IMG/VR virus record: IMGVR_UViG_3300029219_000180
Origin: a virus
Taxonomy: Duplodnaviria; Heunggongvirae; Uroviricota; Caudoviricetes
Direction: 5' to 3' (one strand)
DNA: 9,281 nucleotides
Shown: positions 2,741 through 3,800 of the stretch, in pieces
How the letters are laid out: the number at the start of each line of letters is the position of its first letter
Numbering within the stretch: the stretch's first letter is position 1
Position numbers and translations under genes: made by a program
The notes under the pieces: generated by a model
Seen by the model: the letters and a program-made list of their open reading frames with translations, nothing else
Told to the model about the DNA's origin: nothing
Databases searched by the model: none

Positions 2741-2778
2741 CGTAGCACGTTCTTGCATATGACGTGGCTACGGGTTTC
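2741..2778. repeat. Copy A of imperfect hairpin-containing direct repeat (cgtagcacg-loop-cgtggctacg-ggtttc)
   Basis: 2751-2778 tcttgcatatgacgtggctacgggtttc aligns with 3775-3800 tcttgcatacgacgtgctacggtttc (25 identical positions, two 1-nt indels, one mismatch). The upstream agcacg is also shared. Internal inverted repeat cgtagcacg / cgtggctacg. Confidence 0.7.
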
Positions 2779-2964
2779 GAGACCGACCCGATCATCAAAC
2801 GAAACATAAAATTAGCTCACATTATGAGGAAAGGTATCTTTTTGCGCTATGTAAATTCAAAGGGTTAGCCTCATTTTCCCGATGGATTTCTCAACACTAC
2901 TAGTTGTGAGCCCTTGCAATGTTCATTAATATACGTCTCACAAATAATTCATAGATATTGCAAA

Positions 2965-3738
2965 ATGGATATTACTGAGTTTCCTTCTGGAGTAATTGAA
3001 CACCTTGGCTGGTATGTATACCGATTGATTGATCCGAGGGACGGAAGCACCTTCTATGTAGGGAAAGGCAAAGGTAACCGCGTATTTGCCCATATGCGCG
3101 GTGAAGTGGCAGCGACTGATGATGACGAGTTACTGAGCAACAAGCTAAAGCAAATTAGAGAAATAAGATTAGCGGGACTTGAAGTTATCCATGTCATCCA
3201 TCGACATGGAATGACTGATGAAAAGACGGCGTACGAAGTTGAAGCAGCACTTATTGATGCCTACCCTGGGTTAACGAATATCATGAATGGTGCTGGCAGC
3301 AATGAATTCGGCGCCGCGCATGTCAAAGAGTTGATAGCAACATATCAACCCGAAACCATAACATTTCATCATAAAGCATTAATGATTTCCGTTAACAGAA
3401 GTGCAAAGGATTCAGAGCTTTATGATGCGGTTCGATTTAGCTGGCGCATTAATGTCTCTCGCGCCAGCCAAGCAGAAGTCATTCTTGCTACTGTAAGGGG
3501 GATCGTTCGAGGGGTTTTCATTGCTGATAAATGGCTCAAATCAACACGTGAAAATTTCCCTACGATGAAATACTGGGACGAGGATCCGGACTTTGAGGCA
3601 ACACAAAGTTCTCGCTATGGTTTTGAAGGTCGAGAAGCCCCACCTGAAATAGCAAATCTTTATCTTGGAAAAAAAATACCAGATGAATTAAGAAAAAAAG
3701 GAGCTATGTCCCCGGTCCGTTACTCACCTAATTTTTGA
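2965..3738 (+). CDS. GIY-YIG nuclease family protein with uncharacterised C-terminal extension (~257 aa)
   Basis: N-terminus carries the GIY-YIG signature: GWYVYRL (res 14-20), [14 protein letters not shown] (YVG...R...H), then [16 protein letters not shown] (conserved Glu and Asn region). Start chosen at the ATG at 2965 so the motif sits near the N-terminus; the ORF is open from 2914 (alternative ATG). No strong SD at either start. C-terminal ~130 aa not recognised. Confidence 0.75.
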
Positions 3739-3761
3739 GTCTTTAAGTGATAAGCATAAAC

Positions 3762-3800
3762 CGCAGCACGATCTTCTTGCATACGACGTGCTACGGTTTC
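3762..3800. repeat. Copy B of the hairpin-containing direct repeat; candidate bidirectional terminator between convergent GIY-YIG and pin genes
   Basis: cgcagcacg-atcttcttgcatacga-cgtgctacg followed by gtttc. Lies between the GIY-YIG stop (3736-3738) and the pin stop (3799-3801), overlapping the latter. Confidence 0.65.

What the first reader, a model, noticed from the sequence alone, without database searches (positions are those of the whole stretch)
2741..3800. GIY-YIG gene is bracketed by two copies of a hairpin-containing ~35-bp direct repeat, one of them abutting the pin stop codon
Seen in sequence: 2751-2778 and 3775-3800 are near-identical (tcttgcata[t/c]gacgtg[g]ctacgg[g]tttc), and each has a 9-bp inverted repeat (cgtagcacg / cgtgctacg). 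Copy B overlaps the pin stop; copy A is ~190 bp upstream of the GIY-YIG start. Established knowledge: in the E. coli K-12 e14 element the gene immediately beyond pinE is the HNH restriction gene mcrA. Inference: the slot 3' of pin is a cargo hotspot, and here a different nuclease gene appears to have been swapped in, with the repeat marking the cassette boundary or recombination scar. Copy B may also serve as a bidirectional terminator.
Basis: partly seen in the sequence, partly recalled or inferred. Interest (0 to 1): 0.7.

Follow-up and report, generated by a model that had tools for sequence, protein, structure and literature searches.

The report
Hairpin repeats bracket a prophage defence gene
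The two hairpin repeats are real and belong to a widespread, previously unannotated family of terminator-like hairpins that punctuate the cargo region of lambda-like and e14-like E. coli prophages, and the gene they bracket here is the known anti-phage nuclease PD-T4-3/CMoRE.

Summary
Observation confirmed. Copies A (2740-2780) and B (3761-3800) share 34 of 37 aligned bases with three small indels. Each folds into a 10-13 bp stem-loop.

The bracketed gene (2965-3738) is PD-T4-3/CMoRE, a characterised type IV restriction nuclease for 5hmC and glucosyl-5hmC DNA. It is not a homing enzyme.

The hairpin is not private to this locus and not pin-specific. I found about 180 copies in 135 Escherichia/Shigella prophage loci, always in one orientation. 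They sit at the convergent end of tfa or pin and between cargo genes. Phage lambda itself has two copies bracketing ea47.

The cassette is in 838 of 5426 E. coli genomes. Homology to this window breaks inside hairpin A or at hairpin B, in all four combinations of left and right context. "Empty" sites (module-hairpin-pin, 35-54 bp) exist.

Hairpin A is fused to a tRNA-Ser(CGA) att-site scar, and only about 105 genomes carry the complete hairpin A junction.

Best explanation: conserved terminator-like hairpins act as short homology "linkers" for recombinational shuffling of cargo, analogous to T4 PeSL cassettes. Terminator activity and the recombination mechanism are inferred, not shown. This is a new variant of a known kind, of moderate interest.

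The parts
2678..2739 (+). Conserved ~60-nt 'module' (GCAAAATCGATAACAGTTGGAAATCATTCAATACTCGCACTATCGGAAGTTCACCAGCCA) that precedes hairpin A. Its function is unknown.
   Evidence: 85% identical to lambda 24162-24336 and present in HK97 and phi458. It has about 40 invariant positions across 7 contexts (alignment A1). It was found in at least 1178 of 5426 E. coli genomes, almost always unannotated. PGAP labels it a 'capsid protein' pseudogene fragment.
2740..2780 (+). Hairpin copy A: stem 2741-2750 with 2763-2773, loop TTCTTGCATATGA, tail GGTTTCG.
   Evidence: Model R1 scores it at 57.1 bits. It carries a compensated T:A pair where the family consensus has C:G.
2774..2790 (-). att scar. GGTTTCGAGACCGACCC corresponds to the anticodon arm of tRNA-Ser(CGA) and is fused directly to the right arm of hairpin A.
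   Evidence: In O157 (L004) the same cassette end continues leftward into 63 nt that are 100% identical to the K-12 tRNA-Ser gene next to mtfA, followed by 349 bp that are 96% identical to the yodB-tRNA-Ser region (alignment A3).
2791..2964 (+). Cassette leader, presumably holding the native promoter of the nuclease gene.
   Evidence: It travels with the gene in every context examined. The promoter itself was not mapped here. The CMoRE paper expressed the gene from its native promoter (PMC12923530).
2965..3738 (+). PD-T4-3 / CMoRE gene: a GIY-YIG type IV restriction endonuclease dependent on 5hmC or glucosyl-5hmC, 257 aa.
   Evidence: PADLOC PD-T4-3, E = 2.4e-140, full length. PDB 9u75 (E. coli O157:H7 CMoRE), E = 3.7e-172 over residues 1-257. 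Pfam LEM-3_GIY-YIG. Function from PMC12923530 and bioRxiv 10.1101/2024.12.20.629700.
3761..3804 (.). Hairpin copy B: stem 3762-3772 with 3786-3796, tail TTTCATTT. It abuts and overlaps the pin stop codon.
   Evidence: R1 scores it at 57.3 bits on + and 26.2 bits on -. Its left arm always travels with the cassette, while its loop and right arm vary with the right-hand neighbour, pin or tfa. On the - strand it gives a weak match to the 3' hairpin of Rfam CssrB, 24.5 bits, below threshold.
3799..4353 (-). pin, a serine DNA invertase.
   Evidence: Pfam Resolvase, E = 2.6e-52, and HTH_7. Annotated pinE in the identical locus of strain 0H26.
4408..4433 (-). The only crossover (pix-type) site in the window, given as context for pin.
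   Evidence: One exact match to TTCTCCCAAACCAACGTTTATGAAAA and no second copy within 3 mismatches.

Best explanation
The two repeats are members of one conserved family of terminator-like stem-loops. The consensus is CCGCAGCACG-TTCTTGCATAC-GACGTGTCTGCGG followed by a T-rich tail. The family lies in the accessory (cargo, 'b-region') part of lambda-like and e14-like prophages of Escherichia and Shigella. One copy sits at the point where the late tail-fibre operon (tfa or pin) converges with the att/int-side transcription unit. Further copies follow individual cargo genes. Because the sequence is 34-46 nt and highly conserved, and is often extended by a conserved ~60-nt module, it provides short homology. 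Through that homology, phage or host recombination systems can exchange, insert or delete cargo between unrelated prophages. In this window the cargo is the defence nuclease PD-T4-3/CMoRE. It originally sat at the att-proximal end of a prophage integrated in tRNA-Ser(CGA). Its right end recombined inside the hairpin next to pin. Its left end, still carrying part of the att core, became fused to the 3' side of a resident module+hairpin. The result is hairpin-gene-hairpin. Shown: the family, its distribution, conservation of the stem, the clustering of breakpoints, the empty and filled sites, the identity of the gene and the att scar. Inferred: that the hairpins terminate or stabilise transcripts, and that homologous recombination (for example by Red/RecT-type recombinases) rather than selection on random joints produced the pattern.
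For: (1) Family. Model R1 and an nhmmer profile find about 180 copies in 135 loci. All 45 loci with two or more copies have them on the same strand. (2) Structure. 94.4% of cells are paired, 3 pairs show compensatory changes, and 1-5 of 500 shuffles reach the observed values. The closing pair covaries, with A:U 11, G:C 5 and G:U 5. (3) Different cargo is bracketed: CMoRE, a 222-aa SAM-methyltransferase-like gene (30 loci), lambda ea47, RM plus CMoRE, BRO-N/HTH/ImmA, and omptin plus hydrolase. The lambda hairpins are at 22565-22610 and 24154-24199 of J02459. (4) Breakpoints. In 60 evenly sampled cassette-bearing genomes, 45 left ends fall at q116-132, inside hairpin A. 19 of the 21 right ends that stop before pin fall at q1131-1162, inside hairpin B. 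All four combinations of left and right context occur. (5) Empty and filled sites for the same right-hand context share the loop and right arm of the hairpin and differ only to its left, for both tfa and pin contexts. The distance from module to pin is 35-54 bp when empty, 1058 bp here and 4206 bp with RM plus CMoRE. (6) Hairpin B is chimeric: a consensus left arm (C) with a right arm (A) that is otherwise seen only in hairpin A, where it is compensated. (7) Lambdoid Rad52-like recombinases generate mosaics by homology-driven exchange that tolerates divergence and leaves traces at fragment borders (PMC3945230). (8) Gene identity. att scar.
Against: No experiment here shows termination or recombination at these hairpins. 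The simple terminator scan called neither copy, and several family members lack a T-run on one or both strands, for example lambda CTCTACC and CATATCAC. Many of the genomes are clonally related, so the breakpoint counts represent about 4 left and 3-4 right junction types, not hundreds of independent events. The majority left junction (434 genomes) is an att site, not a hairpin. K-12 e14 carries different pin-adjacent cargo without any hairpin. The junction between hairpin A and the att core shares only about 9-10 nt (CTnCGGTTTT), which fits illegitimate or integrase-mediated joining better than homologous exchange.
Confidence: 0.68

Rival explanations
1. The hairpins are ordinary terminators and play no role in recombination. 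Joints arise by random illegitimate recombination. Only joints at gene boundaries survive selection (the Hendrix 'moron' model), and the copies resemble each other simply through common descent.
For: Cargo genes flanked by a terminator are the classical moron architecture. The hairpin A/att-core joint has only about 9-10 nt of similarity. The RM block joins in the loop of a hairpin with the left arm lost, which looks illegitimate. K-12 e14 exchanged cargo without hairpins.
Against: Both partners of the exchanges carry the same conserved hairpin. Empty and filled sites differ exactly at the left arm while the loop and right arm stay with the neighbour. Sequence conservation, including the loop GCATA, is far higher than terminator function alone requires.
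Confidence: 0.2
2. The hairpin is a structured site for a site-specific recombinase, and cargo genes move as circular cassettes, in the manner of integron attC sites.
For: All copies are in direct orientation. The loop bases are invariant (T.CATA) alongside compensatory stem changes. The cassette behaves as 'right arm ... left arm', as expected from a single crossover between a circle and a target hairpin. Pin lies adjacent here.
Against: Lambda and HK97 carry the hairpins but have no pin and no integron-type integrase. Breakpoints in hairpin A are spread over at least 4 positions (q116, 125, 129, 132) rather than one crossover point. Pin's own site is the unrelated 26-bp pix site at 4408-4433.
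Confidence: 0.07
3. The repeat is a target-site duplication made when a mobile GIY-YIG cassette inserted, either by transposition or by homing driven by the nuclease itself.
For: Direct repeats flank a nuclease gene, and free-standing GIY-YIG homing endonucleases exist in phages.
Against: The copies differ by 3 substitutions and 3 indels. The same hairpin flanks non-nuclease cargo and occurs singly at hundreds of sites. The protein is a characterised modification-dependent restriction enzyme with a solved structure, not a homing enzyme (PMC12923530). There is no transposase. Most cassette copies lack hairpin A.
Confidence: 0.02

Closest known systems
PeSL (promoter-early stem-loop) mobile regulatory cassettes of T4-type phages (Arbiol et al. 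2010, PMC2839356)
   Same: Short conserved repeats that contain a terminator stem-loop. They are concentrated in the hyperplastic, non-essential region and bracket accessory genes. Insertion, deletion and replacement differences between related phages map to them.
   Different: PeSLs include a strong sigma-70 promoter, and both promoter and terminator function and mini-circles were shown experimentally. Here only a stem-loop is repeated, sometimes with a ~60-nt upstream module of unknown function. The phages are temperate (lambdoid or e14-like), and neither function nor circles have been shown.
Morons of lambdoid phages (Juhala et al. 2000, as cited in PMC4104026)
   Same: An extra gene with its own expression signals and a terminator, inserted between two backbone genes. 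The location is near the tail-fibre/att end, and the cargo benefits the lysogen.
   Different: The moron concept does not require the flanking terminators to be copies of one conserved sequence, or to be the recombination joints. Here the same hairpin recurs at both ends and across many different cargo genes.
Homology-driven mosaicism by Rad52-like phage recombinases (De Paepe et al. 2014, PMC3945230)
   Same: This is the proposed mechanism. Short, diverged homologous stretches at the borders of exchanged fragments are found in lambdoid phages and defective prophages.
   Different: That work did not identify this hairpin. Whether Red or RecT acts on it is inference.
PD-T4-3 / CMoRE defence system (PMC12923530; PDB 9U75, 9U7U)
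   Same: The bracketed gene is this protein. It matches the O157:H7 crystal-structure sequence over its full length at E = 3.7e-172.
   Different: No difference at the protein level. The published work, as far as I read it, does not describe the flanking hairpins, the tRNA-Ser att scar or the prophage slot.
Integron attC sites
   Same: Imperfect inverted repeats in direct orientation that separate promoter-less or single-gene cassettes.
   Different: There is no integron integrase, the breakpoints are not at a fixed position, and there is no R'/R'' core motif. This is a resemblance only.

Membership tests
PD-T4-3 / CMoRE (type IV modification-dependent GIY-YIG restriction endonuclease) | Full-length sequence match to the family profile and to the solved CMoRE proteins | tested here: met
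   PADLOC PDLC04031, E = 2.4e-140, residues 1-256 of 257. PDB 9u75, E = 3.7e-172, and 9u7u, E = 1.1e-150, over residues 1-257.
PD-T4-3 / CMoRE (type IV modification-dependent GIY-YIG restriction endonuclease) | 'GIYxY-YIG' motif with a third tyrosine in the N-terminal GIY-YIG domain | tested here: met
   The translation reads [21 protein letters not shown]. The Y-V-Y and F-Y-V-G elements match the motif described in PMC12923530. The Pfam LEM-3_GIY-YIG hit is at residues 28-110.
PD-T4-3 / CMoRE (type IV modification-dependent GIY-YIG restriction endonuclease) | Cleavage of 5hmC or glucosyl-5hmC DNA and protection against T-even phages | not testable with these tools
   Shown for the O157:H7 and APEC O1 orthologues (PMC12923530) and in a native host (10.1101/2024.12.20.629700). 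Not shown for this allele.
Rho-independent (intrinsic) terminator | GC-rich stem-loop immediately followed by a U-run on the transcribed strand | tested here: inconclusive
   The stems are stable, -16 to -25 kcal/mol with z about -3. The tails are only U-rich: A on + is GGGUUUCG, B on + is UUUCAUUUAUC, and B on - is UUUAUGCUUAUC. The consensus scan called neither copy. Relatives next to tfa have a clear TTTTTCTTTTTT tail.
Rho-independent (intrinsic) terminator | Measured transcript 3' ends or read-through reduction at the site | not testable with these tools
   The only lead is a sub-threshold Rfam match (24.5 and 32.6 bits against a gathering score of 76) between the hairpin on the pin/tfa-sense strand and the 3'-terminal hairpin of the Shigella sRNA family CssrB.
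PeSL-type recombinogenic regulatory cassette | Conserved repeat copies flank accessory genes in a plastic genome region | tested here: met
   45 loci have 2-3 direct copies bracketing at least 6 kinds of cargo. Lambda ea47 is bracketed.
PeSL-type recombinogenic regulatory cassette | Insertion, deletion and replacement differences between relatives map to the repeats | tested here: met
   Breakpoints are at q116-132 and q1131-1162. Empty and filled pairs are shown.
PeSL-type recombinogenic regulatory cassette | The repeat contains a strong sigma-70 promoter next to the stem-loop | tested here: not met
   No promoter-like site lies in or next to either copy. The repeated unit is the stem-loop only.
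PeSL-type recombinogenic regulatory cassette | Circular excision products (mini-circles) | not testable with these tools
   This needs outward-facing PCR or long-read data.
Integron gene cassette / attC | Adjacent IntI-type tyrosine recombinase with attI, and crossover at a fixed position in the site | tested here: not met
   The neighbours are a serine invertase and phage-type integrases. Lambda and HK97 have the hairpins with only Int/Xis. Breakpoints are at several positions.
Transposon or insertion target-site duplication | Identical short direct repeats created by insertion, absent as a pair from empty sites, plus a transposase | tested here: not met
   The copies differ by 3 substitutions and 3 indels. 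The hairpin is present at empty sites. There is no transposase gene.

The most novel reading that the evidence does not exclude
The hairpin, with its invariant loop (T.CATA) and covarying stem, together with the equally conserved ~60-nt upstream module, may be a dedicated cassette-exchange signal of lambdoid phages. Under this reading, a structured site or small RNA/DNA element is recognised by a phage-encoded factor (Red/RecT-Orf-Rap, Int/Xis or an unknown protein). That factor would promote capture and excision of single-gene cargo as circles, giving an integron-like cassette system hidden in the lambda b region and shared by hundreds of E. coli prophages. If so, the element would also be a precise anchor for mining new defence genes, including lambda ea47 and the unknown proteins found in the same slot.
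Probability: 0.1. Interest if true: 0.85.

Novelty: new variant of a known kind. Interest (0 to 1): 0.5.

Why it matters
The accessory end of lambda-like prophages is where E. coli keeps many defence and virulence genes. In the loci examined here these include CMoRE, Olokun, type II RM, retron Ec48, PD-T7-1-like genes, omptin, O-antigen acyltransferase and NleC. A short, conserved, easily searchable hairpin that marks the joints of these cassettes has three uses.

- It gives a concrete substrate for the long-debated "linker" model of modular phage evolution.
- It explains how one defence gene appears in prophages that use different integration sites (thrW, ssrA and serU were seen here).
- It offers a practical anchor for finding uncharacterised cargo in the same slot. 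Examples are lambda ea47, a 222-aa methyltransferase-like gene, and unknown proteins of 365, 379 and 488 aa.

It also shows that phage lambda itself still contains an unannotated, highly conserved non-coding element.

Tried and rejected
- **Pin crossover site.** Rejected. The real pix-type site is at 4408-4433 and is unrelated to the hairpin, whose TTCTTG loop start is not conserved in relatives.
- **Homing endonuclease or target-site duplication.** Rejected on gene identity and on the comparative data.
- **Known RNA family.** An Rfam scan of the window at E <= 1 gave only a sub-threshold CssrB 3'-hairpin match and a tRNA-like fragment. The AgvB/AsxR prophage sRNAs lie at the PR' moron site, not here.
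- **The upstream module as an sRNA.** RNAalifold on 24 diverse copies predicts only a weak 4-bp CUGG/CCAG helix, with a covariation term of -0.38. Not convincing.
- **The module as a protein gene.** A minus-strand frame (VLRLAGELPIVRVLNDFQ...) is conserved, and by my own reading of the two sequences in alignment A1 6 of 8 lambda-versus-window differences are synonymous. However, it has no ATG, has in-frame stops in L003 and L012, and diverges after about 30 codons in HK97. Left unresolved.
- **att repeat of the window's own prophage.** Blast of 7290-7430 against 1-2800 found nothing above chance.
- **Species-level genome scan with the hairpin pattern.** Most hits were chance matches in GC-rich genomes. 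True hits were only in Escherichia and Shigella, plus lambda-type pairs in unrelated taxa that look like lambda contamination.
- **Literature.** Searches for the hairpin in lambda (ea47 / b region / terminator) and for CssrB gave nothing useful.
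Full report
**1. The observation**

The window is E. coli DNA. Positions 2400-4500 are 100% identical to strain 0H26.

The two copies are real:
- The gapless core is 2750-2766 and 3774-3790, with 16 of 17 bases identical and a spacing of 1024 bp.
- With indels, A (2740-2780) and B (3761-3800) share 34 of 37 aligned bases.
- The 17-mer occurs twice against an expectation of 0.01.
- Each copy is a stem-loop.
- The tail of B overlaps the pin stop codon at 3799-3801.
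- A ends about 185 bp before the ATG of the GIY-YIG gene at 2965.

**2. The bracketed gene**

The 257-aa protein matches three references:
- Pfam LEM-3_GIY-YIG.
- The PADLOC model PD-T4-3 over its full length, E = 2.4e-140.
- The crystallised E. coli O157:H7 CMoRE protein 9U75, E = 3.7e-172.

PD-T4-3, renamed CMoRE, is a single-gene defence system. It is a type IV restriction endonuclease that degrades 5hmC- or glucosyl-5hmC-modified DNA and protects against T-even phages (PMC12923530). It is active in a native host (bioRxiv 10.1101/2024.12.20.629700). The gene is therefore known. It is functionally analogous to mcrA, which follows pinE in K-12 e14.

**3. The hairpin is a family, not a local repeat**

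The left flank plus hairpin A (about 2600-2773) matches three phages:
- It is 85% identical to phage lambda 24162-24336, between ea31 and ea47.
- It matches HK97 directly after the annotated sib site.
- It matches phage phi458 next to a pin fragment.

In every context the homology stops right after the hairpin (alignment A1).

I aligned 15 copies (A2). The stem is kept in 94.4% of cells and has three compensated pairs. A further closing pair covaries between A:U, G:C and G:U.

A covariance model (R1) and an nhmmer profile were run on three sets of sequence:
- the E. coli loci I had fetched;
- IMG/VR contigs found with an exact hairpin pattern;
- a species-level genome scan.

Together they found about 180 copies in 135 loci. 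Where a locus has two or three copies, they are always on the same strand.

The gene to the right of a copy is a convergent tail-fibre assembly gene in 88 cases and pin in 26. In the rest it is a cargo gene or an unidentified sequence.

True hits in the species-level scan are all Escherichia or Shigella. Lambda-type pairs also appear in unrelated taxa, and these look like lambda contamination. The module plus hairpin occurs in at least 1178 of 5426 complete E. coli genomes and is almost never annotated.

**4. Hairpins bracket many kinds of cargo**

The segments between consecutive hairpins fall into classes:

| Cargo between hairpins | Approximate length | Loci |
|---|---|---|
| CMoRE | 1.0 kb | 6 |
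| 222-aa SAM-methyltransferase-like gene | 1.05 kb | 30 |
| lambda ea47 | 1.59 kb | 3 |
| type II restriction-modification system plus CMoRE | 4.17 kb | 5 |
| BRO-N/HTH/ImmA block | 2.6 kb | 1 |
| block with an omptin and a hydrolase | 5.3 kb | 1 |

In lambda J02459 the two copies lie at 22565-22610, between tfa and ea47, and at 24154-24199. Nothing is annotated at either place. Relatives of lambda have the module-hairpin directly against tfa with no ea47.

Genes just outside the hairpins in the fetched loci include Olokun, retron Ec48, a PD-T7-1-like gene, an O-antigen acyltransferase, sitABCD and nleC. This is the classical cargo end of the prophage.

**5. Breakpoints**

The CMoRE cassette is in 838 of 5426 E. 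coli genomes. I sampled 60 of them evenly down the ranking.

- Left ends of homology to the window:
  - 45 fall at query positions 116-132, which is the loop and right arm of hairpin A.
  - 14 include hairpin A.
  - 1 is truncated.
- Right ends: they either run on into pin or stop at 1131-1162, which is hairpin B.
- All four combinations occur: module or other sequence on the left, pin or non-pin on the right.

For a given right-hand neighbour, empty and filled sites carry the same loop and right arm. They differ only from the left arm outwards:
- Next to one tfa type, the empty site reads ...CCAACCGCAGCACGTCCTGCATACGTCGTGTCTGCGGTTTTTC... and the filled site reads ...taagcatAAACCGCAGCACGTCATGCATACGTCGTGTCTGCGGTTTTTC...
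- The pin sites behave in the same way.

The distance from the module to the pin stop depends on the cargo:
- 35-54 bp in four empty loci;
- 1058 bp here;
- 2238 bp with an unknown 365-aa gene;
- 4206 bp with RM plus CMoRE.

Hairpin B in the window is itself chimeric. Its left arm is the family consensus. Its right arm carries the rare CTACGG variant, which is compensated only in hairpin A.

**6. The left boundary is an att scar**

- **O157:H7 junction.** In O157:H7 (L004) the sequence left of the cassette is the 3' 63 nt of a tRNA-Ser gene, 100% identical to the K-12 gene next to mtfA. It is followed by 349 bp that are 96% identical to the K-12 yodB-tRNA region. This is a genuine prophage-chromosome junction.
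- **Shared cassette end.** The cassette's first bases, CGGTTTTCGAGACCGGTCC(G), are the anticodon arm of that tRNA. They are retained in all cassette copies (alignment A3).
- **This window.** Here the scar (2774-2790) is fused directly to the right arm of hairpin A, through about 9-10 nt of similarity (CTnCGGTTTT).
- **Counts from junction-specific probes.** The tRNA-Ser junction is in 434 genomes. An RM/half-hairpin junction is in 246. The complete module-hairpin A junction is in about 105.

So CMoRE began as the att-proximal cargo of a tRNA-Ser-integrating phage. It was later moved into the cargo regions of phages integrated elsewhere. One such site is thrW, as in this window, where a tRNA-Thr-like fragment lies at 7321-7388. 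Another is ssrA.

**7. Mechanism**

The best-supported reading is that the hairpins are terminator-like elements separating convergent and adjacent transcription units. Their conserved sequence then serves as short homology for recombination between prophages and phages. Homology-driven, divergence-tolerant exchange by Rad52-like recombinases is documented for lambdoid phages (PMC3945230).

The closest described analogue is the PeSL cassette of T4-type phages (PMC2839356). The element here lacks the promoter half, and no function has been measured.

Termination itself is only suggested:
- The stems are stable.
- The tails are U-rich on both strands of copy B, and relatives have clear T-runs.
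- The hairpin gives a sub-threshold match to the 3' hairpin of the Shigella sRNA family CssrB.
- Against this, the simple terminator scan called neither copy.

The rivals are scored in their own section. They are random joints filtered by selection, an integron-like site-specific system, and target-site duplication or homing. The last is effectively excluded.

**8. Verdict**

- The hairpin is a general feature of the lambdoid accessory region, not a pin feature.
- K-12 e14 lacks it.
- The left edge of the cassette is an att scar.
- Most cassette copies lack hairpin A.

The gene is already known. The hairpin family and its role as a cassette joint appear not to be described, as far as my limited searches could tell. 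It is a new variant of a known kind, of moderate interest.

Noticed in passing
window 2678-2739 (also lambda J02459 about 24200-24260; HK97 about 20975-21041): A ~60-nt sequence upstream of the hairpin (GTAAAATCGGTAACGGCTGGAAATCATTCAATACTCGCACTATCGAAAGTTCACCAGCCA) is almost invariant across lambda, HK97, e14-like and Stx-type prophages, whatever lies upstream. Its role is unknown. There is only weak evidence for RNA structure. A minus-strand reading frame is conserved but is interrupted in some copies. PGAP calls it a 'capsid protein' pseudogene.
   Followed up: partly
L139 (lambda J02459) 22565-22610 and 24154-24199: Phage lambda's ea47 gene is bracketed by two copies of the same hairpin. Lambda relatives have the module-hairpin directly against tfa with no ea47. 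ea47 therefore looks like an inserted cargo cassette of unknown function.
   Followed up: partly
window 4380-5251 and 4408-4433: The prophage is a remnant. The window is identical to strain 0H26 up to about 4948, inside tfa. It then jumps to early-region genes (DUF551, xis-like, int). Only one pix-type inversion site remains, so pin has no invertible segment left to act on.
   Followed up: yes
window 7321-7388 (- strand), between integrase genes 6136-7299 and 7421-8524: A partial tRNA lies here, consisting of the 3' part with a CGU-type anticodon arm (tRNA-Thr-like). It scores 22 bits against the Rfam tRNA model, and ARAGORN finds no complete gene. It sits between two tyrosine integrase genes, which suggests two elements integrated in tandem at thrW.
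   Followed up: partly
window 259-1725 (-) and 2041-2562 (-): Two proteins without Pfam or NCBIfam families (488 aa and 173 aa) lie just left of the module, in the position where other prophages carry Olokun or PD-T7-1-like defence genes. The 488-aa protein has only marginal PADLOC hits (LmuA, E = 0.004). They are candidate uncharacterised cargo.
   Followed up: partly
L142, L155, L187, L211, L257 (genome-contig hits): Assemblies labelled Chromatiales, Chromatium weissei, Pseudomonas sp., Legionellaceae and others contain the lambda-type hairpin pair, with the same scores and the 1590-bp spacing seen in lambda. Several other odd-taxon hits are on contigs under 1.1 kb. This is most likely lambda DNA contamination of those assemblies.
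   Followed up: no
L002 2873-2905; L005 5149-5180; L011 5155-5190; L012 1425-1456: A second conserved non-coding stretch (TTTCAACTCCCGCCAGCTCCACCAATCATGATTGGAC) follows the hairpin in several unrelated contexts. The cargo region may therefore contain more than one kind of conserved linker.
   Followed up: no
L007 4323-4521, L010 5092-5290, L033 2062-2260 (- strand): The Rfam family IS009 (RF02111) matches above threshold (about 224 bits) inside tail-fibre assembly (tfa) coding sequence, just beyond the hairpin. This 'RNA family' therefore overlaps a protein-coding gene.
   Followed up: no
window 3773-3781 versus L004 6001-6006: The loop of copy B carries a 3-nt expansion (ATCTTCTTGC) relative to the O157-type copy (ATCTTGC). 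It is a small length polymorphism in the loop of otherwise identical hairpins.
   Followed up: no
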